Notes: generated by a model not told the origin, from the sequence alone. Shown: positions 28,471 through 43,749, counted from the stretch's first letter. The stretch is 64,000 bases of DNA from Alphaproteobacteria bacterium (GCA_965200495.1 CBDAUG010000001.1:1191406-1255405), one strand, 5' to 3'. Translations and numbers: made by a program.

Positions 28471-28498
28471 ATCGGCCCATGCCGCTGGATAACGGAGG

Positions 28499-29477: not shown

Positions 29478-29538
29478 TCACTCAAGTACGTGCAAAATGG
29501 GGCGAGTCGTTACGTTCCAGGATTCGATTCGTGACGGA

Positions 29539-30024
29539 TCATGCCTGGTACATGTGGTAGCGGCCGTGTGCGATGCCGTCGGGGAGGGCGAGGGGGCGCC
29601 AGGCGGCATGGGCGAGGGGCTGATCGCTGATGATGATGGCATCCTCGGCGAGAAGGGGCGGCAGGGCTTTGGCGAGCCAGGCGGCCAGGGCGAGGCTCGC
29701 CTGGCGGTCGCCCGAGCCGATATCGGCGTGGGCAAGGACGGCGGATGGCCCGAGGCGGTGCGCGGCACGGGGAAGTGTGTCGCGAAGCTCGCCGGAAAAC
29801 ATGTGGTGATCGTCGGGGATACAGTCGGGATGGGCGGCGATCCGACGGTCGAAACAGTAGATGTCGCGCTTGCCGAGGAGACAGCGCAGGTGGTCGTAGG
29901 TGCGGCCGTTGCCAAGCCCGATTTCAAGGATGTGACCGGGCCGCGCGCTGACAAGGCGGGCGGCCTCGTCGAGGCACAGCCGCTGGGCCTGAAGACGGCG
30001 AATGGCGCTGTCGAGCCGGCTCAC
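29539..30024 (-). CDS. Class I SAM-dependent methyltransferase-like protein
   Basis: ORF 29539..30093(-). A GTG start at 30024 avoids overlap with the upstream cNMP gene. The ILEIGLGNGRT glycine-rich SAM-binding motif I is present. Confidence 0.55.
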   Translation of the reverse strand: MSRLDSAIRRLQAQRLCLDEAARLVSARPGHILEIGLGNGRTYDHLRCLLGKRDIYCFDRRIAAHPDCIPDDHHMFSGELRDTLPRAAHRLGPSAVLAHADIGSGDRQASLALAAWLAKALPPLLAEDAIIISDQPLAHAAWRPLALPDGIAHGRYHMYQA

Positions 30025-30028
30025 GCCT

Positions 30029-30478
30029 TCAGGAGCCGGCCATGGCGTCACGCAGGAGGGTGGTCGTTTTCTCCACGCGGCGGGCGAGTTCACGCATGAT
30101 CTCGATCGAGATCGACGGGAACTGGTTGACCAACTGGAAGAAGAGCTCCTTGGAAATCATCAGTGTCTCCACCTTCGTCGAGGCCTTCACCGTTGCCGTG
30201 CGCGGCACGTCGCACAGGATCGCATTCTCTCCGAGGAGATCGTTGGGACCGAGCGTTGCCACCTTCACCGGCCCGGACTCCGATTCGACGAGGACATCGG
30301 CGTCGCCGGCAATGATGATGTAGGCGGCATCGCCCTCGTCACCCTGGCGGCACAGCAGATCACCGGGTGCGAAGGTCAGGCGTTGCGCCGTGAAGGCAAG
30401 GAGCTTCAGCCGGCTCGGCTCGATTTTCGAGAACAGCGGGATGGTGCGCAACAGGTCGACTTCCTCCTGCAGGCTCAT
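30029..30478 (-). CDS. Cyclic-nucleotide-binding (cNMP/CAP effector) domain protein, stand-alone
   Basis: 149 aa. CAP-family cNMP-binding signatures are present (LLRTIPLFSKIEPSRL...FAPGDLLCRQGDEGDAAYIIIAGDADVL...LGPNDLLGENAIL...RTATVKA). No DNA-binding HTH follows. Confidence 0.75.
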   Translation of the reverse strand: MSLQEEVDLLRTIPLFSKIEPSRLKLLAFTAQRLTFAPGDLLCRQGDEGDAAYIIIAGDADVLVESESGPVKVATLGPNDLLGENAILCDVPRTATVKASTKVETLMISKELFFQLVNQFPSISIEIMRELARRVEKTTTLLRDAMAGS

Positions 30479-30497
30479 GGGTTATGTCCTCCTCATG

Positions 30498-33176
30498 TCA
30501 TTCTTGTGCTATCAGGCGGGCGAGAACGGAATCGGCGCTTTGGGTGAGTTCCGCGAAGGTGCCCCTCTCGGCAAGCGTGCCGTCCTTCAAGACGAGGACC
30601 TGGTCGAACCGGGCGGCATCGCTTGGCCGGTGTACCACCCAGATCAGCGCTCTCGAGCGAAATTCCTGGCGCACATTGTCCATGACGGCGGCCTGGGAGG
30701 CTCCGTCGAGCATGGCTGTCGCTTCCGAGAGGACCATGATAGCCGGACGTTTGAGAATCGCACGGGCAATGGCTGTCTTCTGCCGCTGCGCCGGCGAGAG
30801 ACGGGCGCCGCCGATTCCGACCTCGGTTTCGAGGCCGAGTTCGATTACCAGGGGGCGAAGATCGAGGTCGCGGATGACGTCGGCCATCAGGCGTCCCACC
30901 TTCTCCTGGGATCCGGCCATGCCCCAGGCGATCTTGCCGAAGAGGATGTTGTCCTGGAGTGACAGCGCGGGATTGTATTGCGCCCGGTCGAAGAACGAGA
31001 TGGCGCTCTTGAGGTCTTCCGAAAGGTTGGCGGCAAAGGCGTGACGCACCTCGAGAAGCCGGTCCTGCATGGCGTCGTCGATCAGGCCGAGACGATGGCG
31101 CGCCGGGGCGAGGCGGAAGGGAAGTGCGAGGAAGCGCTGGCGTTCCTCGTCATCGAGACTCTCCTCGCCGCTGCGTCCCACCTTGGCAAGCAGTGTGCGG
31201 TATTCGGGCAGATCATCGGGCGAAATGAACGAGAACTGCAGGAAGAACTCGTGATCTGCCGGCAGGTCGGCGAAGAGTTCGACCATGGTGCGGGCGACCT
31301 CGCACCCCATGGTCAGGAACTCTTCCGTCAGCCCGGCGCTGGTGAGCAGGGACATGACGTGGTCGTTTTGCGGCAGGCGATCAAGATCGAAGGTGTCACC
31401 GACGGGCGTGCCGAAGAGCAGGTTCTCGCCGACCGTCGCATTGGTGTTGTAGGTGCCACGGTCGAACGGCTCGACCAGTCCGGCCAGAGTATCGCACGCG
31501 AGGCGTTCCTCGAGAATGCGGCGCGCCTCGAGGAGCCTTTCCGCCTCCCGGGGGCGGCTCGCCGGATCAAGCTGGCGCCGCAGTCCCATACGGTAGACAT
31601 CATCCTCGAAATCGGCGACCGCCAGGGCGTGGCGTACCGCATCGATCAGGCCTGACCCGGTGTCCGCACCGGCCAGGCCCAGGTTGACCCAGTCGTCCTC
31701 GACGTCATCGGGACTGTTGGCCGTCAGTTGACGCTCGCGCGCCTGGCGGGCCACTGCATCCTCGATCGCCTGCGGGACAGGCCGCGACTCTTGCGGCGTC
31801 TGGCGCAGACCGTAGAGAAGATTGTCGAGAAGTGATGCGGAAAACAGCGACGTCGCGGGGCCGACATAACCGATCCGTCGCCCCAGGGTGGCCTCCGGAA
31901 GATCGCCGGCGTCCTCGACTCCGTAGGAAAGACGGCCCTGCGTGGTGTCGACGAGACGGACGATCAGTGCCGCAATCCTGTCGCGACCGCTTGCCGCGTC
32001 GCCGGTGACGGCGACGTGACTGTCGAGCGGAATGTCGAAGTTGAGACTGTCAATGAGAGTGTCATCGTCCTCGATGTACTTCACGCCGGTTGCCGCCAGG
32101 CTACCCGTAAACGGCGCGACCTCGCGGTCGTCAAAGACGACGGCGTCGCTTCTCATGCCGGCCGGCGCAAACTGGGTGACCACCTGGTCGTACTTGATCC
32201 TGGCGTCCTCGCGGATCTGGTAGTGATTGAGCAGTTCCTTCCAGGGAGGCGGCAGATCCTTGTAGGCGGCCAGGACGGCAACCAGGCCACCAAGGGTGAG
32301 CGATCCATCGATCACGAACCAGCCGCCGATGGCATAAAAGAAGAATGGTGTGATCTGCGCCAGAAAGTTGTTGAGGAACTTGATGAAGAACTTCTTGCGA
32401 TAGATCTGGTAGCGGATGTCGAAGATGCGACCCATGCGCGCGGTAAACTCGGCCGCCTCCCAGCGCGCCATGCCGTTGGCGTGCAGTTCCTCGACCCCCT
32501 GGACGGTTTCCGAGATGCGCTCCGAGACCTTGCGCACTTCCCTGACGCGATCCTTCGCAAGAAGATTGACCTGGCGCTGGAGTTTCGGAATGAGCCAACC
32601 TTGCATGGGGTAGAGCGCGACCGAGGCGAGGCCCATCAGGGGATCCTGCACGAAGATGAAGAACAGGGCCGTGATCAGGAGGCCACCCTGATACATGGGC
32701 AGGGCAAAGGCGTCGCCGATAAAGCCGCCGAGAGGCTCGACTTCCTGTGTCACCATGGGGATCAGTTCGCCGGAACTCACCCGCCGGAAGTGGGGGGAGG
32801 GAAAGCGCAGGATCCGGCTGTAGAGCTGGTAGCGCAGCCGCCGCAGCATGCGCTCGCCAAGAAGGCCCTTGTACACGTTGATGGCGTACTTGAAGCCGCC
32901 GTTGGCAAGCACGAGAGCCAGGAAGAGACCGCAATAGAGGGCGAGCAGTGTCAGACGTTCCATCTCGCCGAGGTGCATGCCAAGGACGACGACAGGGCGC
33001 AGGTCCGCCGTGCCGGGAGAAAGCGAGTCCGGGTCCTCGAGCACGTGGTTGACGATGAGCTTGGGAATGTCGAGGGAGGCGTAATAGAACGGCAACGAGA
33101 ACAGCGTGAAGAGCAGGATGAAGATCTGCTCCTTGCGCGAGTACCGGAAGATGAACTTGTAGACTGTGGATTCCAT
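30498..33176 (-). CDS. ABC-exporter-like protein: N-terminal 6-TM ABC transmembrane domain plus long C-terminal NBD-like region with degenerate Walker A
   Basis: 892 aa. The N-terminal about 330 aa is a type-1 ABC TMD. The C-terminal region retains the signature LSPAQRQKTAIARAIL and Walker B IMVLSEATAMLD. The Walker A position reads VTGDAASGRDRIAALIV, with no GKS/T. A roughly 300 aa insertion lies between the A-site and the signature. Confidence 0.65.
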   Translation of the reverse strand: MESTVYKFIFRYSRKEQIFILLFTLFSLPFYYASLDIPKLIVNHVLEDPDSLSPGTADLRPVVVLGMHLGEMERLTLLALYCGLFLALVLANGGFKYAINVYKGLLGERMLRRLRYQLYSRILRFPSPHFRRVSSGELIPMVTQEVEPLGGFIGDAFALPMYQGGLLITALFFIFVQDPLMGLASVALYPMQGWLIPKLQRQVNLLAKDRVREVRKVSERISETVQGVEELHANGMARWEAAEFTARMGRIFDIRYQIYRKKFFIKFLNNFLAQITPFFFYAIGGWFVIDGSLTLGGLVAVLAAYKDLPPPWKELLNHYQIREDARIKYDQVVTQFAPAGMRSDAVVFDDREVAPFTGSLAATGVKYIEDDDTLIDSLNFDIPLDSHVAVTGDAASGRDRIAALIVRLVDTTQGRLSYGVEDAGDLPEATLGRRIGYVGPATSLFSASLLDNLLYGLRQTPQESRPVPQAIEDAVARQARERQLTANSPDDVEDDWVNLGLAGADTGSGLIDAVRHALAVADFEDDVYRMGLRRQLDPASRPREAERLLEARRILEERLACDTLAGLVEPFDRGTYNTNATVGENLLFGTPVGDTFDLDRLPQNDHVMSLLTSAGLTEEFLTMGCEVARTMVELFADLPADHEFFLQFSFISPDDLPEYRTLLAKVGRSGEESLDDEERQRFLALPFRLAPARHRLGLIDDAMQDRLLEVRHAFAANLSEDLKSAISFFDRAQYNPALSLQDNILFGKIAWGMAGSQEKVGRLMADVIRDLDLRPLVIELGLETEVGIGGARLSPAQRQKTAIARAILKRPAIMVLSEATAMLDGASQAAVMDNVRQEFRSRALIWVVHRPSDAARFDQVLVLKDGTLAERGTFAELTQSADSVLARLIAQE

Positions 33177-33325
33177 GGTCCCGGTCCGTCATTCCTTCTC
33201 CCGGCGATACTAGGTTCGCATGGCGCCGGATCAAGACTCTGCGCGTTTGCCGGCATTCATCCGGTGACGACAGGGCGGCGGACATGGCAGGATGCGGACC
33301 GGATCGGGAAACAGACGGGTGCGTC

Positions 33326-34573
33326 ATGAGCAAGGTGCCGGAACGCCCGCGCGTCCTGATCTACAGTCATGACAGTTTCGGACTGGGGCATTTGCGCCGG
33401 TGCCGGGCCATCGCCCATGCCATGGTGGGAGCCGTCGACAACCTCACTGTCCTCATCCTTTCCGGCCTTCCCATCATTGGCAGCTTCGATTTTCGTGCCC
33501 GGGTGGACTTCGTGCGCATTCCGGGTGTCATCAAGTTGCGCAACGGAGAGTACTCGCCGCTCAATCCGATGCTCGGTATCGAGCAGACCATGGCGTTGCG
33601 CTCTTCCATCATGCGGCACACCGCCGACATCTTTGATCCCGATATCTTCCTCGTCGACAAGGAACCCCTCGGACTGCGGGGCGAGGTCCGCGAAACGATC
33701 GACATGCTCAAGGATCGCGGCACCAGGATCATTCTCGGTCTGCGTGACGTCATGGATGACCCTGAGCTCCTGAAGCCGGAGTGGGAGCGCAAGAACGCGG
33801 TCCCGGCCCTGAGCGATCTCTACGACGAAATCTGGATCTATGGCCTGCCCCAGATTCATGATCCGCTTGTCGAGATCGACATGCCGGACTCGGTGCGTCG
33901 CAAGGTGGTCTACACGGGATATCTCAAGCGCACGGTGCCCGTGCTGAGCCCGGAAGCAGCGCTGCCGGACGCCATTGATGAGCCCTTTGTGCTCGTCACC
34001 ACGGGTGGTGGAGGGGATGGCGATTTGCTGGTTGACCGGGCGCTGGCAGCCTACGAAAGCGCCAGGGCGCCTGAACAGCCGGCTCTGGTGGTGTTCGGAC
34101 CATTCATGCAGCCCGAGGTCAAGACTGCGTTCCAGCTCCGTGTCGATCGCCTTGAACAGGTATCGGCCATCACCTTCGAGACGCACCTCGAGTCGCTGAT
34201 GGCGCGGGCCGTGGGTGTGGTGGCCATGGGGGGCTACAACACGTTCTGCGAGATCCTGTCATTCGACAAGCCGGCTCTCATCGTTCCGCGACAGGCGCCG
34301 CGCCGCGAGCAGATGATCCGGGCCAGCCGCGCCTGCGAACTCGGCCTTGTCTCGATGCTGACCGAAGACGCCGCGGCCCGTGACGACGCAATGGCGACGG
34401 CGATTCGCCAACTGCCGCAACAGCGCCGCCCCAGCCAGGTTGTGGTTCCAGGGCTCCTCGACGGCCTCGAGAATGTCAATCGGCTGGTCGGGATGCATCT
34501 CGCCGCAAACCGCGCTGGCCCGCGCCCTGCGCCAGAAGGGTTGACCGTCAGCCGGCGGCACGGCGGTGGATGA
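33326..34573 (+). CDS. Glycosyltransferase, GT-B fold, COG4671 / GT28-MGT-like (UDP-sugar dependent)
   Basis: ORF 33284..34573, start at the ATG at 33326. N-terminal motif YSHDSFGLGHLRRCRAIAHAM and C-terminal GGYNTFCEIL resemble MurG/UDP-glycosyltransferase GT-B enzymes. Paralogous to 39458..40588. Confidence 0.65.
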   Translation: MSKVPERPRVLIYSHDSFGLGHLRRCRAIAHAMVGAVDNLTVLILSGLPIIGSFDFRARVDFVRIPGVIKLRNGEYSPLNPMLGIEQTMALRSSIMRHTADIFDPDIFLVDKEPLGLRGEVRETIDMLKDRGTRIILGLRDVMDDPELLKPEWERKNAVPALSDLYDEIWIYGLPQIHDPLVEIDMPDSVRRKVVYTGYLKRTVPVLSPEAALPDAIDEPFVLVTTGGGGDGDLLVDRALAAYESARAPEQPALVVFGPFMQPEVKTAFQLRVDRLEQVSAITFETHLESLMARAVGVVAMGGYNTFCEILSFDKPALIVPRQAPRREQMIRASRACELGLVSMLTEDAAARDDAMATAIRQLPQQRRPSQVVVPGLLDGLENVNRLVGMHLAANRAGPRPAPEGLTVSRRHGGG

Positions 34574-35741
34574 GAGCACTTCGTGCAAGCCACAGCGCCG
34601 GAATGAGGAAGAGCGGTATGGAGGTGAGGATGAATGTCGACCAGCCCAGGGTCACTGTCAGCGCTCCTGAGGCAAAGGACGCAACCGCAGCCGCGAGCGC
34701 GATCAGAGTCTCGTTCAGTCCCTGGATCCGTGACTGATCCTCGGGCCGGACATGTTCGGCAAGCAGGCTTGTCGCCCCGATGAAGCCGAAGTTCCAGCCG
34801 AGCCCGAGCAGGACAAGGGCAAGATAGAAGTTCTCCAGAGCAACACCGGACCACGCGGTGAAGGCGGCCGCAGCCAGCAGGGCAAGACCGATGGCAATGA
34901 CACGGTACGTCCCCCAGCGGGCGATCAGCGACCCGGTCAGGAAGCTCGGGCCAAACATGGCGACGACGTGCCAGCGCACCACGTCGGCCGACTGATCGGT
35001 CGACAGCCCGCAGCTGGCCATCGCGATACTGGTGGGTGTCATCACGAATACCATCATGGCATGGGCGGCGGCGGCGCAGACAATGGCGGTCACCACTGGC
35101 GGGCTGCCAAGAATCTGCCCCAGTGGCCGTGCCGTTGTCCGTGGACGCGCAGGAGGCTTTGCAAGATCGAGAAAGGCGACCGGAAGACAGCCGACAAGGC
35201 AGATGATCACGATGGCCGCATAGGCCCCGGCAAAGGGTACGGGGAAGAAGTGATCCCGGGTGTGGATCAGGATTTCCGGGCCGAGCAGCGCGGCAATCAG
35301 ACCCGCTCCGGTGATGATGGCGATGGCCTTGGGTTTCCAGGGGCCGTCAACGGCATCGGCGGCGGCGAAGCGGAAGTACCACAGGCTGCTCTGCATGGCG
35401 CCGAAGCACACATGGGCGAGGCACAGATAGACGAAATCCCTTTCGAAGAGGGCCACCGCGCCCAGCCAGCCTCCTGCCATGGCGCACCCGGCACCGCCAA
35501 GAAACCCGGCGCGGCGTCCGAATCTCCCCATGATGAGGGAAATGGGCGTGGCCATGACCATGGCGCTCAGCATCTGCAGGGAAATGGCGACGGTGGCGAG
35601 ACTGGGCACAGGCGCCACGTAGGTTCCGGCAAGTCCCGCCATGATGATGAGCATGGGCATCTGGGCGCCAAGCACGGCGTTGCCCGCAAACAGCAGGACG
35701 AGATTGCGCACGGCACTTCGATCGTTGACTGAATGGCTCAC
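34548..35741 (-). CDS. MFS transporter
   Basis: 397 aa, 12 TM. MFS loop motif MGRFGRRAG. Convergent with the glycosyltransferase; their 3' ends overlap by 26 nt. Confidence 0.75.
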   Translation of the reverse strand: MSHSVNDRSAVRNLVLLFAGNAVLGAQMPMLIIMAGLAGTYVAPVPSLATVAISLQMLSAMVMATPISLIMGRFGRRAGFLGGAGCAMAGGWLGAVALFERDFVYLCLAHVCFGAMQSSLWYFRFAAADAVDGPWKPKAIAIITGAGLIAALLGPEILIHTRDHFFPVPFAGAYAAIVIICLVGCLPVAFLDLAKPPARPRTTARPLGQILGSPPVVTAIVCAAAAHAMMVFVMTPTSIAMASCGLSTDQSADVVRWHVVAMFGPSFLTGSLIARWGTYRVIAIGLALLAAAAFTAWSGVALENFYLALVLLGLGWNFGFIGATSLLAEHVRPEDQSRIQGLNETLIALAAAVASFASGALTVTLGWSTFILTSIPLFLIPALWLARSALIHRRAAG

Positions 35742-36538
35742 GCGTTCAGCCTCCGGTCCGTTTCACGGGTCATCGCCATGCCTGGAGGCAACGCTTCCTC
35801 TGCGCGCAGACGCGCCAGTTCCTGGCGCCACGCCAAGGATTTGAACACCGCTTGTGCCGTGCCGTACCTTGCGCATGTCGGGTGCGCATGCGTTGCCTTC
35901 TCAGGCTGCTCAATCCGGCGGCGCGTATGAAGCCGTCCTTGCGGCGCACGCTGGCGCCGGGTTTGTCGACGACATCCCGGGTGCCGGGGTCTTTCGCAAT
36001 GACCGCTCCGCTCGCCGGCTTCCGGGAGGCGAGACGCCGCCGGTTGCGCCGCTTCATGGCAATGCTGCACGTCGTCCGGCCATGCCCGCCGCATGAATGA
36101 TCCCGCAGTCACCGGTGGCCCTCTGGCCCGTCTTCATGTCGAGACCTGTCACGCTGCCAGCCTGCAACGGGCGGTTGCCGTTGATTCGCCTCATGACAGC
36201 GCGCAACGGGGTTTGCCGTCACGGCGTCACCGGCCCGGTCTGCGGTACGCTGTCGATGGACAATCTGACGACATTCGGTATCGTCCGCCATGCGCGGTCG
36301 GCTCTCCATTGAGCGTTTGGTGGGGCGGGGTAGGCGGCCCCGGAACCACATGCCTCATCCCGTAACATCGCCATTCAGTCAAGAACTGCTGACGGGCGTA
36401 TCATGGTTCGCTGCACGGAGGATCTACCGGGCGATGAAAGGGAAAGGCTGTTCATGACGGACTCGTCGAGTGTGCGGGACAGATCACATCGCCGGCGCCG
36501 TGCCCGATGCCTCCACTCCGGGCGGATGTTGCTGACTC

Positions 36539-37777
36539 GTGCCCGGTAACGTTGCCTTCGTGGTGAAGGGTTGGCCCCGCCTCTCCGAGACCTTCATCGC
36601 CCAGGAGATCCTGGCCCTGGAGAAGCGCGGACTCGACATCCGGATCGTCTCCCTGCGTCATCCATCGACGCCGGATCGTCATGCGATCCACGATGCCGTG
36701 AGGGCACCGGTCACGTGGCTTCCGGAGTATCTTCACGAGGAACCCGTGCGGACCTGGAAGGCCTGGCAACGTGCCCGGAAACTGCCGGGCTATGCCAGCG
36801 CGAGGCGCTGCTGGTGGTCCGATCTCCGGCGGGACCCGACACGCAACAGGGTGCGGCGCTTCGGTCAGGCCTGTGTTGTTGCCACGGAAATCACCCCTTT
36901 CGTGAACCACCTTCATGCCCATTTTCTCCATACCCCGGCATCCGTGACCCGCTATGCAGCGATGATGACCGGGCTTTCGTGGTCGGCATCGGCCCATGCG
37001 AAGGACATCTACACCACCCCCCGTCGCGATCTCGCGGACAAGATGTCCGACTGCGCCTGGCTGGTGACCTGTACGGCGGCAAACCGTGACTGGCTCGAGT
37101 CGCTGGCTCCGGGGCGACGTGTGTCACTCGCCTATCACGGCATTGATCAGGCGCGATGGCCGTCACCGGTCCGTTCCCCGGCGATACGCGATGGCAGCAA
37201 TGCGGACGATCCCGTGCGCCTTGTCACGGTGGGCCGCGCCGTCGAGAAAAAGGGGTATGGCACGCTCCTTGCCGCACTCGCCCTGCTGCCTGATGATCTC
37301 CACTGGCGCCTTATCCATGCCGGCGACGGACCGCTGCTTTCCTCGCTCGCCGAAACAGCCGCCCGGAAGGGACTCGACAGGAGAATCACCTGGCTGGGCG
37401 CCAGACGCCAGGACGAGATCCTTCAAACTCTTCAGGAGGGAGACCTCTTTGTTCTGGCGCCCCTCATCGCCCGTGACGGGGACCGTGACGGGCTTCCCAA
37501 TGTTCTCATGGAGGCGCAGAGCCAGGCACTCGCGGTGGTCACGACGGATGTCTCGGCAGTCGGCGAACTGGTGATCGACGGTTTCAACGGCTGTCTGGTT
37601 CCCCCAGACGATGCCCCGGCGCTGGCTGCCCGGCTCAGTCATCTTGTCCGCAACCCGCAGTTGCGCGAGCGCATGGGCCGCAACGGTGAGGATCGTGTGA
37701 GAACGGAGTTTTCCATGGAGAGCGGCATCGACAGGCTTGTTGATCTCTTCGCGTCGAGCGGGGTGACATGCGCGTAG
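36539..37777 (+). CDS. Glycosyltransferase family 1 (GT4-type, WcaL/colanic-acid-like)
   Basis: 412 aa. The C-terminal GT1 motif is present (VLAPLIARDGDRDGLPNVLMEAQSQALAVVTTDVSAVGELV). GTG start at 36539 per the ORF track. Confidence 0.8.
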   Translation: MPGNVAFVVKGWPRLSETFIAQEILALEKRGLDIRIVSLRHPSTPDRHAIHDAVRAPVTWLPEYLHEEPVRTWKAWQRARKLPGYASARRCWWSDLRRDPTRNRVRRFGQACVVATEITPFVNHLHAHFLHTPASVTRYAAMMTGLSWSASAHAKDIYTTPRRDLADKMSDCAWLVTCTAANRDWLESLAPGRRVSLAYHGIDQARWPSPVRSPAIRDGSNADDPVRLVTVGRAVEKKGYGTLLAALALLPDDLHWRLIHAGDGPLLSSLAETAARKGLDRRITWLGARRQDEILQTLQEGDLFVLAPLIARDGDRDGLPNVLMEAQSQALAVVTTDVSAVGELVIDGFNGCLVPPDDAPALAARLSHLVRNPQLRERMGRNGEDRVRTEFSMESGIDRLVDLFASSGVTCA

Positions 37778-38871
37778 CCTTCTATGCACCCATGAAGGCG
37801 CCGTACCACGAACGGCCCTCGGGTGATCGAACGATGGCACGACAGTTCCTGCGCCTTCTGGGCGAACTCGGACACAACGTGGACGTCGCCTCGACGCTGC
37901 GCGCATGGGAGCATGGCGACGAGAAACGCCAGGAGGCGATCCTTGAGGCGGCGGTCCGGGAAAGGGAACGTCTCCTCAGCCGCTGGCAGTCCCGGCCGCC
38001 CCACGCGTGGTTCACCTATCATCTCTACCACAAGGCGCCCGATCACCTCGGACCGGCCATCGCCGATGCCCTGGGAATTCCCTATGTCGTCGCCGAGCCG
38101 TCGATATCTCCCGCCCGGGCTCACGGCCGGTGGCGGCGTCCCTGGGCCCATGCACGGGCAGCCCTCGAGCGTGCCGATGTTCTGCTGACCATGACGATGA
38201 AGGACGAACGGGGTCTCCTCGCCGCCGGTTTGCCGTGTCGCAGGATCGTGCGCCTGCCACCCTTCATCGATGCTGCGGATGCACCGGTCGCGAGGATGGA
38301 GGCGCGGCGCACCCTTGTTCGGGACTTCGGTCTTGATGGAGAGCGCATGATTGCCATCACCGTGGCCATGATGCGCGCCGGCGACAAGCTTGAGTCCTAC
38401 CGCGTCCTGGCCCGGGTGCTGGCGGCGCTGGATCGCGACGACTTTCATCTTCTGGTTGTCGGCGACGGTCCGTCGCGCGGCGAGGTTGAACACCTCCTCG
38501 CCGGGCGCGCCGTCTTCACCGGGGTCCGTGACGAGGACTCGATCCGGCAGATCCTGGCCGGGTGCGACGTCTTCATCTGGCCCGCCATCAACGAGGCTTA
38601 TGGCATGGCGATCCTTCTCGCCCAGGCCTGCGGATGCCCGGTGGTCGCCGGTGACGCGCCGGGGGTCGGCGAGATCATCGGTCATGGCGACACCGGTCTT
38701 CTGGCACCGTCAGGCGATGCGGCAGCGCTGGCTCTTGCCGTTTCCCGCCTGCTCGACGATCCGGATCTGCGCCGGTCCATGGGGGATGCCGGACGACGCC
38801 ATGTCCTCGCGAATCATTCGCGCGATACGGCCCGGCGCATTCTCGGCCGGGCGCTGGAGACGCGGCCGTGA
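37768..38871 (+). CDS. Glycosyltransferase family 1 (GT4-type)
   Basis: 367 aa. GT1 C-terminal E-x7-E region (FIWPAINEAYGMAILLAQACGCPVVAGDAPGVGEII). Overlaps the upstream gene by 10 nt. Confidence 0.8.
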   Translation: MRVAFYAPMKAPYHERPSGDRTMARQFLRLLGELGHNVDVASTLRAWEHGDEKRQEAILEAAVRERERLLSRWQSRPPHAWFTYHLYHKAPDHLGPAIADALGIPYVVAEPSISPARAHGRWRRPWAHARAALERADVLLTMTMKDERGLLAAGLPCRRIVRLPPFIDAADAPVARMEARRTLVRDFGLDGERMIAITVAMMRAGDKLESYRVLARVLAALDRDDFHLLVVGDGPSRGEVEHLLAGRAVFTGVRDEDSIRQILAGCDVFIWPAINEAYGMAILLAQACGCPVVAGDAPGVGEIIGHGDTGLLAPSGDAAALALAVSRLLDDPDLRRSMGDAGRRHVLANHSRDTARRILGRALETRP

Positions 38872-39458
38872 AACTCGCGTTGCTGAGACATGCGCAGACA
38901 AAGTGGAACGAGGCAGGCCGGCTCCAGGGTCTGAGCGACATAGGGCTCTCGAGGACAGGCAGGACCGCGGCCAGGGCCTGGCGGTTGCCCGGTCACCTGC
39001 ATGGCTGGCGACGGCTTTCGAGTCCGTTGCTGAGAGCGCTGGAAACGGCTGCGCTCACGGGTTTGGCGGATCCGGAGATTGAACCGCGGCTGCGCGAAAT
39101 GGATTGGGGAGACTGGGAAGGCAAGACGCTCGACAGTCTGCGCCATGCCGATCCATCGGCCATGTCCGCCAACGAGGCAGCGGGTCTCGACTTTCGCCCC
39201 CCTGACGGCGAAAGCCCCCGGGACGTCCGGCGCCGTCTCCTCGATCTTGTCCGGGACCTTGCGGCAGACGGCCGCCACACGGTTGCCGTGACACATCGCG
39301 GTGTGATGCGCGCAGCCCTCTCGGCTGCCACAGGCTGGGATTTCACAGGCGCGCCGCCCATCAGGATGCCGCGATACGGACTGCTGATGCTCACCGTGGA
39401 CGACAACGCGGCAGTCGTTCCCGACGATCCCCCTGTCATTGCGACGGGAGGAGGCTGA
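38868..39458 (+). CDS. Histidine phosphatase family protein (phosphoglycerate-mutase-like)
   Basis: N-terminal LLRHAQTKWN (catalytic RHG-type His) and a later VTHRGVMRA motif (second His). 196 aa. GTG start overlaps the upstream stop (GTGA). Confidence 0.75.
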   Translation: MKLALLRHAQTKWNEAGRLQGLSDIGLSRTGRTAARAWRLPGHLHGWRRLSSPLLRALETAALTGLADPEIEPRLREMDWGDWEGKTLDSLRHADPSAMSANEAAGLDFRPPDGESPRDVRRRLLDLVRDLAADGRHTVAVTHRGVMRAALSAATGWDFTGAPPIRMPRYGLLMLTVDDNAAVVPDDPPVIATGGG

Positions 39459-40588
39459 TGGACGGGCCGGTTCTCTTCTGGGTCCAGCATCTCTTGGGAA
39501 GCGGCCATCTCAAGCGCGTGGCGCGCATTGCGTCGGTGCTGGCCGGGAACGGCACGGCGGCGGTGATCGCGTCGGGAGGCATGCCTGTGGCGACTCTCGA
39601 TACGGGAAAGGCCCGTCTCGTCCAGTTGCCGGCGGTGCGTGCGGGTGATGAGACGTTCTCCAGGCTTGTGGACGCTGCAGGGCGGCCCGTGGACGCGGCC
39701 TTTCTCGATGATCGCCGCCGCCGCCTCGAAGACCTGGTTGGTCAACTCGACGCGCGTCTTGTGGTCACCGAGACCTGGCCGTTTGGCAGGCGCCAGCTCA
39801 CGGCGGAAGTGCTCGCTCTTGTTGCTGCCGCACGCCGTCATCGCTGCAACACGATGGTGGTCAGTTCGGTGCGGGACATTCTTCAGCGCCCGTCAAGGCC
39901 CGAACGCCACGACACCATGCGCGACCTGGCGCTGCAGCACTGCGATCACGTCATGGTACACGGAGTCGAGAGCTTCGTGCCGTTCGGGAAGACCTTTTGC
40001 CATGCTGGGGCCTTGAGCCACCTGCTTCACTACACAGGCTACGTCGCCGACGCGCCGCCGGTCGTCAGCGAATGGGGTCCCGGCCGCGGGGAAATCGTGG
40101 TCTCTGCTGGCGGCGGGGCTGTCGGAGAAGGTCTCCTCAAGGCAGCCATGGCGGCGCCAGCGTACTCGAAGCGCGCCCGCCGGAAACGGTGGCGGCTCCT
40201 GGTCGGTGACAGCGGTCTTGCGCCATGCGAACAACAGGGCATGGTGGCCGAACCCAATCGTTCCGATTTTCCCGAACTTCTTCGCCGTTGCGCCGTTTCG
40301 GTGTCGCAGGGTGGCTACAACACGGTGGCGGAGATCCTTGGCGCCGGCGCCCGGGCCGTCGTCGTGCCATGGTCAGCGGCCGGCGAAACCGAACAGACGG
40401 AGCGCGCACGGCACTTGCAGCAGCGCCGGCTTGCCATCGTTCTCGATGACGCGGCACTGACACCCCGAAGCATGGCAAGGGCTGTCGATGAAGCCTTCGA
40501 CCTCGAACCAGGGAACATGGGGGACATCAGGCTCGATGGTGCCGGCGAGAGCGCCAGGCTTATCGCTGACTGGCTGCGCCATGGCTGA
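39458..40588 (+). CDS. Glycosyltransferase, COG4671 / GT28-MGT-like (paralog of 33326..34573)
   Basis: N-terminal FWVQHLLGSGHLKRVARIASVL parallels YSHDSFGLGHLRRCRAIAHAM of the paralog. C-terminal GGYNTVAEIL. GGAGGAGG RBS. TGATG overlap with the upstream gene. Confidence 0.65.
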   Translation: MDGPVLFWVQHLLGSGHLKRVARIASVLAGNGTAAVIASGGMPVATLDTGKARLVQLPAVRAGDETFSRLVDAAGRPVDAAFLDDRRRRLEDLVGQLDARLVVTETWPFGRRQLTAEVLALVAAARRHRCNTMVVSSVRDILQRPSRPERHDTMRDLALQHCDHVMVHGVESFVPFGKTFCHAGALSHLLHYTGYVADAPPVVSEWGPGRGEIVVSAGGGAVGEGLLKAAMAAPAYSKRARRKRWRLLVGDSGLAPCEQQGMVAEPNRSDFPELLRRCAVSVSQGGYNTVAEILGAGARAVVVPWSAAGETEQTERARHLQQRRLAIVLDDAALTPRSMARAVDEAFDLEPGNMGDIRLDGAGESARLIADWLRHG

Positions 40589-41354
40589 CTGGACGGCGCT
40601 GGTGCGGGAGCTTGGCCTGTGGGCGCAATCAGGACGGACGGCGACGTTCTGGTGGCGGGACGACGATGCCGGCAACGATGTCGCGAAACTCAAGGAGCTC
40701 CTTCATCTGCAACAGAGTCTCGGCGTTCCCCTTGCCATCGCCGTGGTGCCGGGCTGGCTGAGCGATGAGGTCGCAGCGCTCATTGCCGGGACGGGCGATA
40801 TCCATGTATTGCAGCACGGCGTGGCCCATGCCGACCACAGCGCAGGCAGGGGGCGCAGAATGGAGCTCTGTGACAGGGCCCTGTCTTCCGGTCTCCGCCA
40901 AGCCCTGATACGGTCGCGAAACGTGCTTCGCGCATCCTTTCCGTCGACACTGAGGGAGGTCATGGTACCCCCATGGAACAGGATTGATGAGGCGGTGGTT
41001 TCCATCCTTGCCAGGAGCGGATTTGTTGGTCTCTCGACACTCGGTCCACGGCGCGGCGCACGAAGGCACGGTCTTGTTGTCAACAACGTTCATGTCGATA
41101 TCATCGACTGGAAGGCGGGAAGGCGGTTTGCCGGCGACAAAGCCTGCCTGGAAGCATCGCTCAGACACCTCGAAGATCGCCGCCTTGGTGTCGTGGACTC
41201 CGCGGAAGCCACAGGGCTGATGACTCATCACCTCGTTCACGACGCAGCATGTCGCACCTTCATTGACCGATTCGTCCATACCGTTGCGCGGCACCCGGCG
41301 GGCCGCTGGCTCTCCGCCGGCACGGTGTTTGCCGCAGGGGGGGCGGATGCATGA
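40578..41354 (+). CDS. Polysaccharide-deacetylase-like (NodB-fold) protein
   Basis: ORF 40488..41354 trimmed to the ATG at 40578, which overlaps the upstream stop. ATFWWRDDD and a His-rich VLQHGVAHADH motif are present. About 259 aa. Confidence 0.55.
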   Translation, partial: AMADWTALVRELGLWAQSGRTATFWWRDDDAGNDVAKLKELLHLQQSLGVPLAIAVVPGWLSDEVAALIAGTGDIHVLQHGVAHADHSAGRGRRMELCDRALSSGLRQALIRSRNVLRASFPSTLREVMVPPWNRIDEAVVSILARSGFVGLSTLGPRRGARRHGLVVNNVHVDIIDWKAGRRFAGDKACLEASLRHLEDRRLGVVDSAEATGLMTHHLVHDAACRTFIDRFVHTVARHPAGRWLSAGTVFAAGGADA

Positions 41355-41884
41355 AGGCACCCGGGGTTCTTTGCTATGATACCCGGAGCATCGCAGCCGA
41401 CTATGCGCGTGCCGTGTTCGGCGCGGTGGTATGCCTCGCGCCGCCGCTGCTGATGGACGTCGCTGCCGTGCTGGCGTGGATCCTGGTGGCGATGGGTGCG
41501 CTGTTCGTGGCCTTCGGCCTGAGAACCCTGCTGCGCCATCTGACCGTCTATGAACTCACCCCGGAAGGGATGACAGCCAGCGGACCGCTTGGCGCTGCGG
41601 TTTCCTGGGAGGACCTGACGGCCATCAACCTCGCCTATTTTCAGACGCGCCCGCGGCGCAAGATCATCACACAGTCCCCGAGCGGCTGGATGGAGCTCAC
41701 CCTTCGCGAGGGGCGCCAGACCATCAAGGTCGATTCCTCCCTTCAGGGATTCGATGATGTCGTCGGCGAGGCCGCCCGGGTTGCCCGCGAGCGTGGATTG
41801 ACGCTCAATTCGGTGACGCTCGCCAACCTGGCGGCCATGGGGTTCGTCCACGCTTCGCCGGAAAGCGGGGAGGTGTCGTTGTGA
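41351..41884 (+). CDS. Membrane protein with two N-terminal TM helices and a bacterial PH-like (YdbT/bPH) domain
   Basis: 177 aa. Hydrophobic segments AVFGAVVCLAPPLL and VLAWILVAMGALFVAFGL. The C-terminal segment has a bPH-like fold prediction from pattern only. ATGA overlap with the upstream gene. Confidence 0.45.
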   Translation: MKAPGVLCYDTRSIAADYARAVFGAVVCLAPPLLMDVAAVLAWILVAMGALFVAFGLRTLLRHLTVYELTPEGMTASGPLGAAVSWEDLTAINLAYFQTRPRRKIITQSPSGWMELTLREGRQTIKVDSSLQGFDDVVGEAARVARERGLTLNSVTLANLAAMGFVHASPESGEVSL

Positions 41885-43749
41885 CCCCGCTCATCGAGGT
41901 CGACGATCTCCACATCAGCTTCCGGATCGGCGATGGCACCGTCGAAGCTGTCAAGGGGGTGTCGCTCACCATGTTGCCGGCGCGCACCCTTGCACTGGTG
42001 GGTGAATCGGGCTCCGGCAAGACCGTGATCTCCCAGGCCATCATGCGCATTCTGCCGCGCGTTGCCGAGATCACCTCGGGCCGCATCCTGTTTCACGACC
42101 CTCACAACCGTGATGGAGGGCCGGTCGATATCGTTTCCCTCGAGGAGAATGGTCGGGGGATGAGAGCCATCCGTGGCGGGCGCATATCGGTGATCTTCCA
42201 GGAGCCGATGACATCCCTCTCGCCGTTGCATACGGTGGGTGATCAGGTCGGTGAAGCCCTCCATCTCCACCGCCGCTGCTCAAGGGCCGAAGGCCATGAA
42301 CTGACCATCGACATGCTGCGCCTTGCCGGTTTTCCGGATGCGCGCGCCGCCTTCAACAGCTACCCCTTCGAACTGTCCGGTGGTCTGCGTCAACGCGCCA
42401 TGATCGCCATGGCGCTGGTCTGTCGTCCGGCGTTGCTGATCGCCGATGAACCCACCACCGCTCTTGATGTCACCGTCCAGGCACAGATCCTCAAGCTGGT
42501 GAACGACCTCAAGGCCGAGCTTTCCATGGCCGTGTTGATGATCACGCACGATCTCGGTGTTGTCGCCAACGTCGCCGAGGACATTGTGGTGATGTACCAC
42601 GGCAGGATCATGGAACGGGGCTCCCTCGACGACATCTTCCATCGGGCTCGCCATCCCTATCTCAAGGGACTGCTGGCGGCCGTGCCACGCTTTGGTCTTC
42701 GTCCCGGAGAGCGGCTGGTTCCGCTGCGCACGATACCGATGACGAACATTGCTTCCATGAGCCGGACGGGAGTGCGCGGGAACGCCGGCGAAACGCTGCT
42801 TTCGGTGCATGGTCTCGTGAAGACATTCACCACCCGCAAATCCGGATTGCTGGCCCGGGCCCGGACCTCCCATGTTGCGGTCAACGATGTCAGCTTCGAG
42901 GTGCGGCGCGGCGAGTGCCTTGGTCTGGTCGGCGAGTCGGGATGCGGCAAGACCACGACAAGCAAGCTCATACTGAGGGCTCTCGACCCCGATGCGGGAA
43001 CCATCACCTTCCTTGACGACGGGGTGCCGCGGGACGTCTTTGCCCTGAAGGACAAGGACCTCTTCGCCTACCGCAGGAAGGTGCAGTTCATCTTCCAGGA
43101 CCCATTCGGATCGCTCAATCCACGCATGACGGTGTTCGACATCATCGTCGAACCACTGCTGATTCATGGTGTGGGTAACGCCGAAGGGCGCGCCGAAAGG
43201 GTCAAGGATCTCATCAATGTCGTCGGCCTGGATGTCCGCCACCTGCGCCGCTATCCGCACAGTTTTTCCGGAGGGCAGCGTCAGCGGATCGGCATTGCCC
43301 GGGCCCTTGCCCTTGAACCGGAGCTGCTGATCTGCGATGAACCGGTCTCGGCTCTCGACGTGTCGATCCAGGCGCAGGTTCTCAACCTGCTGAAGGACCT
43401 GCAACGGGAGATGGGCCTCACCTACATCTTCATTTCGCACAATCTCGCCGTGGTCGACTACATGGCCGACCGCATTGCCGTGATGTGTGCCGGGCGTCTC
43501 GTCGAGCAGGCGAGTCGCGAGGAACTGTTCAGCAATCCGGTGCATCCCTACACCCGGGCCCTGCTCGCCGCGGTTCCCGAGCCCGACCCCGAACGCCAGC
43601 TTGATCTCTCACTGCTCATGGAAGGCCGCGCCTCCGTTCCGGGCGAGTGGCCCGAGCCCTTCAGGGAGACCGGCTGCCTCGGGATCGTCAGCGTCGGCGC
43701 CGATCACTGGGTGCGGGCCACGGCAGAGCCGGGAGACGTCCGGATATGA
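41881..43749 (+). CDS. Fused double-NBD ABC ATP-binding protein of a peptide/opine importer (YejF/DppDF-like)
   Basis: 622 aa with two complete NBDs (GESGSGKT... [12 protein letters not shown]... [10 protein letters not shown], and GESGCGKTT... [12 protein letters not shown]... [10 protein letters not shown]). GTGA overlap with the upstream gene. Confidence 0.85.

What the first reader, a model, noticed from the sequence alone, without database searches (positions are those of the whole stretch)
29539..35741. cNMP-binding protein plus ABC-exporter-like protein with dead Walker A plus COG4671 glycosyltransferase: possible cyclic-nucleotide-gated glycan export module
On the minus strand, an 892-aa protein joins a typical ABC exporter TMD to an NBD-like region. 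That region keeps the signature and Walker B but has no P-loop lysine/serine (GDAASGRDR) and carries a roughly 300-aa insertion. It is followed 20 nt later by a stand-alone CAP-type cNMP-binding domain and then, 4 nt after that, by a SAM methyltransferase. A COG4671-type GT-B glycosyltransferase is divergently encoded, and an MFS gene converges on it. A non-hydrolysing ABC-like membrane protein partnered with a nucleotide-second-messenger receptor and a glycosyltransferase is a recurring logic in c-di-GMP/cAMP-controlled exopolysaccharide secretion. This exact combination is not a described system.
Basis: partly seen in the sequence, partly recalled or inferred. Interest (0 to 1): 0.55.

Follow-up and report, generated by a model that had tools for sequence, protein, structure and literature searches.

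The report
cNMP-coupled dead-ATPase ABC protein cluster
An ABC-exporter-like membrane protein with a crippled ATPase always sits beside, or is fused to, a cyclic-nucleotide sensor inside a conserved sugar-transferase and peptide-importer gene cluster, which corresponds to the little-studied 'opt-red' operon that Rhizobium needs for nodule life.

Summary
The genes are real and the P-loop really is non-canonical (GDAASGRDR). About 300 extra residues sit inside the nucleotide-binding domain. Rhizobial orthologues have lost the Walker A Lys, the catalytic Glu and the H-loop His.

The pairing with the cNMP-binding protein is not chance. It follows the ABC gene in 71 of 71 metagenome loci that extend far enough. 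It is fused to the ABC C-terminus in 11 of 11 long relatives scanned. A class III cyclase lies next to the cluster in Rhizobiaceae and in one gammaproteobacterial locus.

The module belongs to a larger cluster of about 18 kb: methyltransferase, cNMP, ABC, then divergently RedA-like GT, GT4 (RedB-like), GT4, histidine phosphatase, second RedA-like GT, two unknown proteins and an Opt/Yej-type ABC importer. The MFS gene is a lineage-specific passenger.

In Rhizobium leguminosarum 3841 the orthologues are pRL110046-55 (cyaA-optDABC-redA-redB-redAh-ABC-cNMP). Published INSeq data mark the cNMP protein, the ABC-like protein and redB as needed in nodules.

The substrate and the mechanism are not known. 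A cNMP-gated, non-hydrolysing glycoconjugate exporter or flippase is the best guess.

The parts
29539..30024 (-). Methyltransf_17 (PF12692) small SAM methyltransferase. Recurrent accessory gene. The likely start is the GTG at 30024.
   Evidence: Pfam E 5.4e-49. It follows the cNMP gene in 53 of 61 metagenome loci that are long enough. It lies directly upstream of the ABC gene in Azospirillum oryzae. It is absent in Rhizobiaceae and in L018.
30029..30478 (-). Stand-alone cyclic-nucleotide-binding (CNB) domain protein of 149 aa, with no DNA-binding domain.
   Evidence: PF00027 E 9.4e-20. Best solved relatives are PKG and PKA CNB domains. The phosphate-binding cassette G-E-x-A-I-L-x-x-x-P-R-T-A-T is conserved in 98 orthologues, with Arg in 98 of 98. 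The gene follows the ABC gene in 71 of 71 loci.
30498..33176 (-). ABC type IV exporter-like half-transporter of 892 aa with a degenerate NBD.
32157..33176 (-). Transmembrane domain (about aa 1-340).
   Evidence: ABC_membrane covers residues 77-302. The AF2 model has long helices.
31977..32003 (-). Degenerate Walker A GDAASGRDR (aa 392-400).
   Evidence: Alignment to ABCB19.
30843..31799 (-). Family-specific, mostly helical insertion in the helical subdomain of the NBD (aa 460-778). It contains two extra copies of the 'FDRxxYN..(E/D)N(I/L)LFG' Q-loop-like unit.
   Evidence: position. (hhalign, 560-625 against 720-785, probability 96.6%, E 4.8e-10). (949 clusters at 50% identity carry it). (AF2 pLDDT 83.9; no Foldseek PDB match with E <= 1e-3).
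30501..30842 (-). C-terminal part of the NBD: signature LSPAQ, Walker B VLSE, D-loop and H-loop.
33177..33283 (.). Divergent intergenic region between the ABC gene and the RedA-like GT gene.
   Evidence: Gene coordinates. The same divergent layout is seen in most loci. Promoters were not tested.
33284..34573 (+). GT-B glycosyltransferase with a GT28_C-like C-terminal half. RedA-like (GTa). The probable start is Met15 at 33326.
   Evidence: 49-50% identical to R. leguminosarum, R. etli and S. meliloti redA-position genes. Present in 50 of 58 loci.
34548..35741 (-). MFS transporter. A lineage-specific passenger, not a core part.
   Evidence: MFS_1. Present only in the closest relatives L001-L009, absent in L010-L014 and in the metagenome loci.
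36539..37777 (+). GT4 glycosyltransferase, RedB-like (GT4a).
   Evidence: Glycos_transf_1 E 8e-27. Present in 27 of 27 loci. 48-50% identical to the rhizobial redB-position gene.
37768..38871 (+). Second GT4 glycosyltransferase (GT4b).
   Evidence: Present in 26 of 27 loci. Absent in Rhizobiaceae.
38868..39458 (+). Histidine phosphatase (His_Phos_1).
   Evidence: E 3.8e-41. Present in 21 of 27 loci. Absent in Rhizobiaceae.
39458..40588 (+). Second GT28_C-like GT-B transferase, a RedA homologue (GTb).
   Evidence: Present in 27 of 27 loci. 37-38% identical to the rhizobial redAh-position gene.
40581..41354 (+). Conserved protein X of about 257 aa, with no family match.
   Evidence: No Pfam or PDB match. 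Present in 27 of 27 loci.
41351..41884 (+). Conserved small membrane protein (177 aa), with no family match.
   Evidence: Present in 17 of 17 loci.
41881..47790 (+). Opt/Yej-type ABC importer: a fused double ATPase (41881-43749), a family-5 binding protein (43647-45632) and two permeases (45629-46627, 46528-47790).
   Evidence: Pfam. 56-64% identical to rhizobial optDABC. The ATPase is present in 17 of 17 loci.

Best explanation
The region is the left arm of a conserved cluster of about 18 kb (29.5-47.8 kb). This cluster is the Rhodospirillales-type version of the rhizobial cyaA-optDABC-redA-redB-redAh-ABC-cNMP operon.

Proposed mechanism:
1. The cytoplasmic GT-B transferases (two RedA-like, two GT4), helped here by a histidine phosphatase and a small methyltransferase, build a small glycoconjugate. 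It is an oligosaccharide or a glycolipid, not a polymer.
2. The 892-aa protein is an ABC type IV exporter fold whose NBD has lost, or is losing, ATP hydrolysis. It has gained a helical insertion of about 300 aa.
3. The protein acts as a homodimeric membrane gate or flippase for that product.
4. Opening of the gate is controlled by the CNB protein, which docks on the NBD or the insertion and responds to cAMP or cGMP. The nucleotide is made by the adjacent class III cyclase in Rhizobiaceae and by a cyclase encoded elsewhere in this organism.
5. The co-transcribed Opt importer takes up the product, a precursor or a related external ligand.

Shown: the fold, the degenerate motifs, the intact cNMP-binding cassette, the obligatory linkage and fusion, and the shared nodule phenotype of the orthologues.

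Inferred: that anything is transported, the direction of transport, the chemistry of the product, the ligand identity and the docking site.
For: - Degenerate catalytic motifs in this protein, in 116 close homologues, in 68 representatives at 50% identity and in Rhizobium, Sinorhizobium, Azospirillum and Ruegeria orthologues. In Rhizobium Walker A is GPNGSGAEAF, Walker B is FIFNRP and the H-loop has Ser.
- No second half-transporter gene is conserved in the cluster.
- The CNB phosphate-binding cassette is conserved, with Arg in 98 of 98 orthologues.
- The CNB gene follows the ABC gene in 71 of 71 loci. It is fused C-terminally in 9 of 9 long representatives, plus Azospirillum and Ruegeria. Two members carry an additional GGDEF domain.
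- A class III cyclase lies adjacent in R. etli, R. leguminosarum, Sinorhizobium sp. B11 and S. meliloti, and cyclase domains flank the pair in the gammaproteobacterial locus L013.
- The gene set is kept through at least four different gene orders.
- INSeq in R. leguminosarum 3841: pRL110046 (CNB) is ES in nodule bacteria and in bacteroids; pRL110047 (ABC-like) is ES then DE; redB is ES in both.
- All GTs are soluble GT-B types. There is no polyprenyl-phosphate primer, no synthase and no Wzx/Wzy.
Against: - No substrate, no transport and no nucleotide binding has been measured for any member.
- redA and redAh insertions are neutral in the same INSeq data in which redB, the ABC-like gene and the CNB gene are not. 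The genes therefore do not all share one phenotype.
- cyaA is also neutral in those data.
- No cyclase was found in this window.
- In the query's own clade the catalytic Glu and the H-loop His are kept, and most close homologues keep the Walker A Lys. Some ATP use cannot be excluded.
- Distant family members (Ruegeria, P0137, P0221) lack the GT and Opt context. The ABC-CNB pair is therefore a more general device than a glycan exporter.
- The published R. etli work, as I recall it, attributed the operon's phenotypes to oligopeptide uptake.
Confidence: 0.4

Rival explanations
1. The ABC-like protein transports nothing. It is a membrane-anchored signalling or regulatory scaffold, in the way SUR is an ABC fold used as a regulator. 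It passes cNMP status to the Opt importer or to the glycosyltransferases, or passes a membrane or periplasmic cue to the CNB protein.
For: Catalytic residues are lost across the whole family. Some members carry a further GGDEF output domain after the CNB domain. The link to the Opt ATPase gene is tight and the two genes are directly adjacent in Azospirillum. The family also occurs without any GT genes.
Against: A complete six-helix exporter TMD is conserved with many invariant residues. That is costly for a mere anchor. optA/optD and the ABC and CNB genes have opposite INSeq phenotypes: advantaged in the rhizosphere against required in nodules.
Confidence: 0.2
2. It is still an ATP-driven exporter. 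Either it has an unusual but working site, or it works as a heterodimer with a canonical half-transporter encoded elsewhere. The unusual site would arise because, in close homologues, the acidic residue has moved to Walker A (G-S-G-K-E/D) and the hydroxyl to Walker B (h-h-h-h-S-E).
For: Among 117 close sequences, Lys is kept in 109, the catalytic Glu in 111 and the H-loop His in 109. The S/T to E/D change in Walker A and the D to S change in Walker B co-occur, which looks compensatory.
Against: The query has Arg in place of the Walker A Lys. Rhizobial, Azospirillum and Ruegeria orthologues lack Lys, Glu and His altogether. The signature glycines are lost as well, so neither composite site would be canonical even in a heterodimer. 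No partner gene is conserved nearby.
Confidence: 0.15
3. It is an uptake system rather than an exporter. It would be an ATP-independent importer of ABC fold, analogous to SbmA/BacA, working beside the Opt/Yej-type importer on peptides or glycopeptides, with cNMP gating.
For: In rhizobia BacA and YejABEF are the two known parallel peptide uptake routes (abstract of PMC10128002). The cluster pairs a Yej/Opt paralogue with an ABC-fold protein that lacks a working ATPase.
Against: The TMD matches ABC_membrane PF00664, and the best structural matches are exporters. There is no specific similarity to SbmA/BacA. The conserved GT genes have no role in this reading.
Confidence: 0.1
4. The genes are merely neighbours inherited together and have no functional link.
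For: Most sampled loci come from one orthologous clade at 46-65% identity.
Against: There are domain fusions. Gene orders are shuffled while the gene set is kept across Rhodospirillales-like, Rhizobiaceae, Azospirillum and a gammaproteobacterial locus. The INSeq phenotypes agree.
Confidence: 0.02

Closest known systems
Rhizobium etli opt operon (Vos et al. 2007, Environ Microbiol 9:1665, pmid 17564602) and R. leguminosarum 3841 pRL110046-pRL110055 (cyaA, optDABC, redA, redB, redAh, ABC exporter permease, 'FNR/CRP regulator')
   Same: Orthologous core set. OptDABC is 49-64% identical, RedA-like GT 49-50%, RedB-like GT4 48-50%, second RedA-like GT 37-38%, the ABC-like protein 37% with the same insertion, and the CNB protein 51-53%. 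The gene names come from the INSeq tables.
   Different: Here the cluster is split into two divergent operons. It has four extra core genes (GT4b, histidine phosphatase, X, the 177-aa membrane protein) and a Methyltransf_17 gene. It has no adjacent cyclase and no UDP-sugar dehydrogenase. The NBD is less decayed, keeping Glu and His. The R. etli paper itself could not be read. My recollection is that it describes oligopeptide uptake, bacitracin, ampicillin and osmotic phenotypes and about 50% lower nitrogen fixation, and does not treat the ABC-CNB pair.
HetC-type and NHLM-type peptidase-containing ABC exporters with a cNMP-binding-like domain (PMC10986499; NCBIfam TIGR03796/TIGR03797/TIGR03896)
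   Same: A type IV ABC exporter combined with a CNB-fold regulatory domain, either in cis or as a neighbouring protein. The CNB protein here gives a weak hit to TIGR03896 (E 5.8e-10) and the ABC-like protein to TIGR03796.
   Different: In HetC the domain is N-terminal, binds ppGpp in vitro, comes with a C39 peptidase, and the ATPase glutamate is essential. Here the domain is C-terminal or separate, has a canonical cAMP/cGMP cassette, there is no peptidase, and the ATPase is degenerate. All scores are far below the families' cut-offs.
ABC proteins with degenerate nucleotide sites used as gated channels or regulators (CFTR, SUR), and heterodimeric exporters with one degenerate site (TM287/288, TmrAB, BmrCD)
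   Different: Those proteins keep at least one competent ATP site. Here a single half-transporter gene has Walker A, Walker B, Q-loop and signature all altered. The cNMP receptor binds directly rather than through a kinase, and there is a 300-aa insertion with no structural match.
Type IV ABC exporters of glycolipids and glucans (MsbA, PglK, NdvA/ChvA, HepA)
   Same: These are the best NCBIfam similarities: MsbA 187 bits and HepA family 160 bits. PglK and ChvA are also listed. Those genes also lie beside glycosyltransferase genes.
   Different: Scores are far below the equivalog cut-offs (602, 725). Those proteins are canonical ATPases of about 580 aa with no insertion and no CNB partner.
Second-messenger-gated polysaccharide secretion (BcsA-PilZ, Alg44, PelD)
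   Same: The logic is the same: a nucleotide second-messenger receptor attached to the membrane component of a glycan pathway.
   Different: Those systems use c-di-GMP, and their folds differ (a GT2 synthase channel; PilZ or GGDEF-like receptors). There is no homology. This comparison is from general knowledge and was not tested here.

Membership tests
ABC type IV exporter fold (ABC_membrane PF00664 plus NBD) | Six-helix exporter TMD followed by an NBD of RecA-like and helical subdomains | tested here: met
Catalytically competent ABC ATPase | Walker A G-x-x-G-x-G-K-[ST] | tested here: not met
   GDAASGRDR: G4 to A, K to R, S/T to D. Across the family K is variable and the next residue is almost never S/T.
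Catalytically competent ABC ATPase | Walker B h-h-h-h-D-E and Q-loop Gln | tested here: not met
   IMVLSE has Ser in place of Asp, with the Glu kept. The Q-loop Gln is Pro. Rhizobial orthologues have FIFNRP.
Catalytically competent ABC ATPase | Signature LSGGQ | tested here: not met
   LSPAQ. The family consensus is L-S-[APST]-A-Q-R-Q-K.
Catalytically competent ABC ATPase | H-loop histidine and D-loop | tested here: met
   VVHRPS and AMLD are present in this protein. The His is lost in Rhizobium, Sinorhizobium, Azospirillum and Ruegeria and in most distant representatives.
Cyclic-nucleotide-binding domain (PF00027, CAP/PKA type) | Beta-roll with the phosphate-binding cassette G-E-...-R-[ST]-A | tested here: met
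   70.8 bits against a cut-off of 27.5. GENAILCDVPRTATV: Arg is invariant in 98 orthologues and Glu is present in 91 of 98. Actual ligand binding is not testable here.
CRP/FNR transcription factors | C-terminal helix-turn-helix DNA-binding domain | tested here: not met
   The protein has 149 aa and only PF00027 is found. The CRP and FtrB NCBIfam hits cover only the N-terminal 134-136 profile positions. The R. leguminosarum annotation 'FNR/CRP family regulator' is therefore misleading.
GT-B glycosyltransferase, GT28 / MurG-like ('COG4671') | C-terminal nucleotide-sugar-binding Rossmann half of GT28 | tested here: inconclusive
   Glyco_tran_28_C scores 28.1 bits against a cut-off of 22, over 75 residues only. 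MJ1255/VC2487 scores 32 bits against a cut-off of 196. There is no PDB sequence match. No COG library was available.
Rhizobial opt-red operon | Co-linear optDABC, redA, redB, redA homologue, ABC-like and CNB genes | tested here: met
   All nine have reciprocal-looking tblastn matches of 37-64% in R. etli p42e, R. leguminosarum pRL11 and S. meliloti pSymB. Names are mapped by gene order. The cyclase is not present here.
Classical exopolysaccharide or capsule pathways (Wzx/Wzy, ABC-2 Wzm/Wzt or KpsMT, synthase) | Polyprenyl-phosphate priming GT, flippase/polymerase or GT2 synthase, OPX/PCP proteins | tested here: not met
   None was found among the conserved cluster genes.

The most novel reading that the evidence does not exclude
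The ABC-CNB pair is a cyclic-nucleotide-gated, ATP-independent conduit or flippase of ABC fold. It would be a bacterial device in which an exporter scaffold has been turned into a ligand-gated gate, with the CNB domain replacing ATP as the switch and the duplicated helical insertion acting as its docking platform. It would release a small RedA/RedB-made glycoconjugate that rhizobia need inside nodules. The Opt importer would recapture that product, giving a secretion and re-uptake signalling loop.
Probability: 0.15. Interest if true: 0.85.

Novelty: new variant of a known kind. Interest (0 to 1): 0.6.

Why it matters
ABC exporters are normally defined by ATP hydrolysis. Here a large family has let the catalytic site decay. 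The insertion alone defines 949 sequence clusters at 50% identity, found in soil, marine and lake metagenomes and on the chromids of Rhizobium, Sinorhizobium and Azospirillum. The family keeps the membrane domain and has acquired an obligatory cyclic-nucleotide receptor.

That points to a different energising or gating principle for an ABC fold. It also gives cAMP/cGMP a direct, non-transcriptional output in bacteria.

The orthologues lie in genetically tractable rhizobia. There, transposon sequencing already marks the CNB protein, the ABC-like protein and one glycosyltransferase as needed in pea nodules, so the question can be tested directly. It may explain part of the old 'opt operon' symbiosis phenotype.

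Tried and rejected
- A literature search for 'COG4671' gave nothing. Searches that combined cNMP-binding, ABC transporter and glycosyltransferase terms found no description of the pair. The Clr regulon paper concerns a different pSymB cluster. One badly chosen query was wasted. 'redA redB rhizobi*' gave nothing relevant. The Vos 2007 paper is not held.
- Sequence searches of the PDB with GTa, GTb and protein X gave no significant match. Pfam found nothing for X or for the 177-aa protein, even at E <= 5.
- Foldseek of the insertion alone against the PDB gave no match with E <= 1e-3 and no TM score above 0.14. This is a piece cut out of its domain, so absence of a match is weak evidence.
- I looked for a cyclase in the window by scanning most large ORFs and found none.
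- I looked for a conserved second half-transporter that could form a heterodimer and found none in any locus.
- I considered the MFS gene as part of the module and rejected it, because it is present only in the closest relatives.
- I considered a classical EPS pathway and rejected it, because the hallmark genes are missing.
- Rfam found no riboswitch in or next to the cluster.

Full report
**1. What is in the sequence**

Pfam gives these matches:
- The 892-aa protein (30498-33176, minus strand): ABC_membrane over residues 77-302 (E 1.2e-20), and ABC_tran only over residues 726-821 (E 1.6e-9).
- The 149-aa protein (30029-30478, minus strand): cNMP_binding (E 9.4e-20).
- The next ORF: Methyltransf_17 (E 5.4e-49).
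- The divergent 429-aa protein: a weak Glyco_tran_28_C match.
- The convergent 397-aa protein: MFS_1.

Orthologues of the methyltransferase align only from residues 21-24 of the longest ORF.

**2. The nucleotide-binding domain**

I compared the protein residue by residue with ABCB19.

| Motif | This protein | ABCB19 | Change |
|---|---|---|---|
| Walker A | VAVTGDAASGRDR | VAVVGGSGSGKST | G to A, K to R, S to D |
| Q-loop | IGYVGPATSLF | IGLVNQEPALF | Gln replaced by Pro |
| Signature | LSPAQRQ | LSGGQKQ | both Gly lost |
| Walker B | IMVLSEAT | ILLLDEAT | Asp replaced by Ser, Glu kept |
| H-loop | VVHRPS | VAHRLS | His kept |

Between 'DNLLYG' (about residue 459) and 'GLETEVG' (about residue 779) lie about 320 residues. 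ABCB19 has about 22 at that position.

In 116 full-length close homologues:
- The Walker A Lys is usual (109 of 117 sequences). Arg occurs only in the query's clade.
- The residue after it is Glu or Asp, almost never Ser or Thr.
- The Walker B Asp is Ser, Ala or Asn.
- The acid and the hydroxyl appear to have swapped places. I cannot explain this.

In 68 more distant representatives, and in the Rhizobium, Sinorhizobium, Azospirillum and Ruegeria orthologues, the catalytic residues are simply gone. Rhizobium has Walker A GPNGSGAEAF, Walker B FIFNRP and Ser in the H-loop. A degenerate NBD is therefore the rule for this family.

**3. Fold and insertion**

An AlphaFold2 model built on 66 sequences has mean pLDDT 81.5. 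The NBD and the insertion score about 88-94.

The insertion is mostly helical. It holds two further copies of the strand-helix-strand unit 'FDRxxYN..(E/D)N(I/L)LFG', which resembles the Q-loop region. Profile comparison of residues 560-625 with 720-785 gives probability 96.6% and E 4.8e-10. The insertion therefore arose at least partly by internal duplication of the start of the helical subdomain.

Modelled alone (pLDDT 83.9), the insertion has no Foldseek match in the PDB with E <= 1e-3.

Searched alone against 1.84 billion representatives, the insertion finds 949 clusters at E <= 1e-3, of which 263 are at E <= 1e-30. Nearly all are proteins of 830-1200 aa with the insertion at the same position.

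**4. Coupling to the cNMP receptor**

- All nine representatives of 1010-1206 aa that I scanned carry a PF00027 domain fused after the NBD. Two of them carry a GGDEF domain after that.
- The Azospirillum oryzae and Ruegeria plasmid-borne members are fused in the same way.
- In 80 metagenome loci the separate CNB gene follows the ABC gene in 71 of the 71 loci with at least 600 nt of downstream sequence. The median gap is 44 nt.
- The CNB protein has the classical phosphate-binding cassette GENAILCDVPRTATV. Arg is invariant in 98 orthologues and Glu is present in 91.
- Its best solved relatives are PKG and PKA cNMP domains.
- It has no DNA-binding domain, so it is not a CRP-type regulator despite that annotation in Rhizobium.
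- In R. etli, R. leguminosarum, Sinorhizobium sp. B11 and S. meliloti, a class III cyclase gene lies at the head of the same gene string. In the gammaproteobacterial locus L013, cyclase domains flank the pair.
- I found no cyclase in this window.

**5. The real extent of the unit**

tblastn of window proteins against 15 genomes and 80 metagenome contigs shows one conserved cluster. Its order is:

[Methyltransf_17] - CNB - ABC-like, then divergently [RedA-like GT] - GT4a - GT4b - histidine phosphatase - second RedA-like GT - protein X - 177-aa membrane protein - fused double ATPase - family-5 binding protein - two permeases.

In the window this spans 29539-47790.

Presence among the metagenome loci that reach far enough:

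| Gene | Loci with the gene / loci that reach far enough |
|---|---|
| GT4a, GTb, X | 27 / 27 |
| GT4b | 26 / 27 |
| Histidine phosphatase | 21 / 27 |
| Membrane protein, importer ATPase | 17 / 17 |
| RedA-like GT (GTa) | 50 / 58 |
| Methyltransferase | 53 / 61 |

Four observations show that the gene set, not just the gene order, is conserved:
- In L084 all genes point one way, and ABC-CNB sits between GTb and X.
- In Azospirillum the order is methyltransferase - ABC(CNB) - importer - GTs.
- In Rhizobiaceae it is one operon-like string: cyclase - importer - GTa - GT4a - GTb - ABC-like - CNB.
- The gammaproteobacterial locus L013 keeps ABC-CNB plus GT4a, GT4b, the phosphatase, GTb and X.

The MFS gene occurs only in the closest relatives and is not part of the unit. 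Some distant family members (Ruegeria, P0137, P0221) have no GT or importer genes nearby.

**6. Link to published work**

[quoted passage not shown] I mapped the tags by gene order and product, so the mapping is an inference.

INSeq calls are (ES essential, DE defective, AD advantaged, NE neutral).

| Old tag | Name in the INSeq tables | Gene in this report | INSeq calls |
|---|---|---|---|
| pRL110056 | UDP-sugar dehydrogenase | none in this window | DE in nodule bacteria, ES in bacteroids |
| pRL110055 | cyaA | cyclase (none here) | NE |
| pRL110054-51 | optD, optA, optB, optC | Opt importer | optA and optD AD in rhizosphere and on roots |
| pRL110050 | redA | GTa | NE |
| pRL110049 | redB | GT4a | ES in nodule bacteria and in bacteroids |
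| pRL110048 | redAh | GTb | NE |
| pRL110046 | 'FNR/CRP family regulator' | CNB protein | DE in rhizosphere, ES in nodule bacteria and in bacteroids |

The operon was first described by Vos et al. [quoted passage not shown] The reference is confirmed, but the text is not held. From memory, it reports an Opt oligopeptide transporter with two redA homologues and one redB, reduced nitrogen fixation, and altered bacitracin, ampicillin and osmotic tolerance.

I found no work on the ABC-like and CNB pair itself.

**7. What it most likely does**

All the transferases are soluble GT-B enzymes. No priming transferase, synthase, Wzx/Wzy or outer-membrane export gene is conserved. The product is therefore more likely a small oligosaccharide or glycolipid than a polymer.

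The closest solved relatives of the binding protein are an uncharacterised 'oligopeptide-binding protein' (5ipw, E 4e-85), Sphingomonas SPH1118 (E 2e-61) and an alpha-galactoside-binding protein. From memory, SPH1118 binds pectin oligosaccharides. The importer's ligand need not be a peptide.

The most economical reading is this: the ABC-fold protein moves or flips the GT product across the inner membrane without a normal ATPase cycle, and the CNB protein switches it in response to cAMP or cGMP. I give this 0.4.

The rivals are:
- a non-transporting regulatory scaffold (0.2);
- a still ATP-driven exporter with an odd site or a hidden partner (0.15);
- a BacA-like uptake function (0.1);
- chance neighbourhood (0.02).

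The remainder is left for something not considered here.

Points against the favoured model: redA, redAh and cyaA are neutral in the INSeq data, there is no biochemical evidence of any kind, and the family also occurs without GT genes.

**8. Comparison and novelty**

The unit is orthologous to a genetically known but mechanistically unexplained rhizobial operon.

The ABC-like protein belongs to the type IV exporter fold but fails four of the five catalytic-motif tests.

ABC exporters with cNMP-like domains are known, for example HetC, whose N-terminal domain binds ppGpp and whose ATPase is essential. The arrangement here differs: a C-terminal or separate canonical cNMP domain, a decayed ATPase and a duplicated helical insertion. 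I therefore class it as a new variant of a known kind.

Interest is moderate to high (0.6). The family is large, it breaks the defining property of its superfamily, and tractable model organisms with an existing phenotype are available.

Noticed in passing
window 22276-22382 (+): TPP riboswitch (RF00059, 79.7 bits, E 4e-14). It lies about 1 kb upstream of an ABC importer permease and ATPase pair (23386-25735). This may be a thiamine-related uptake system.
   Followed up: no
window 27600-29540: A segment of about 1.9 kb with an IS66-family transposase fragment (28663-29367, PF03050 E 5e-9) and ORFs with no family match. It has no counterpart in any fetched locus. In relatives L004 and L006-L008 the CBS/PALP gene (26191-27591 here) directly abuts the methyltransferase gene. 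It looks like a decayed insertion at the edge of the cluster.
   Followed up: partly
window 35741-36396: About 650 bp of extra sequence between the MFS gene and the GT4a gene. Relatives have only about 130 bp there. There is no similarity to any fetched locus, and the one ORF (35738-36112, minus strand) has no family match.
   Followed up: partly
window 9591-12832: An AAA_15/AAA_21 ATPase (10841-12832, +) lies next to a 437-aa ORF with no Pfam match (9591-10904, -). This domain pair is typical of OLD/Gabija-like or AbiEii-like defence ATPases.
   Followed up: no
window 53968-59498 (-): A second, separate Opp/Dpp-type ABC importer: fused double ATPase, two permeases and a family-5 binding protein. 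It is a paralogue of the one in the cluster.
   Followed up: no
P0180, P0221 (relatives of the ABC-like protein): Two family members carry TMD - degenerate NBD - cNMP_binding - GGDEF in one chain. This links a cyclic mononucleotide input to a possible c-di-GMP output on an ABC scaffold.
   Followed up: partly
Close homologues of the ABC-like protein, Walker A and Walker B columns (query residues 399 and 817): The Ser/Thr after the Walker A Lys is replaced by Glu/Asp, and the Walker B Asp is replaced by Ser, in the same sequences. This looks like a reciprocal swap of the two Mg-coordinating positions. It is unexplained.
   Followed up: partly
Start of the insertion in several homologues (for example those with 927-981 aa): Long low-complexity stretches rich in Lys, Glu, Thr, Pro and Ala, for example KKKKKKKKRKKKKKGG, are inserted right after the 'LYGL(K/R)xRP' motif. 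They are absent from the query.
   Followed up: no
L033, L076, L079: Two tandem Methyltransf_17 genes follow the CNB gene instead of one.
   Followed up: no
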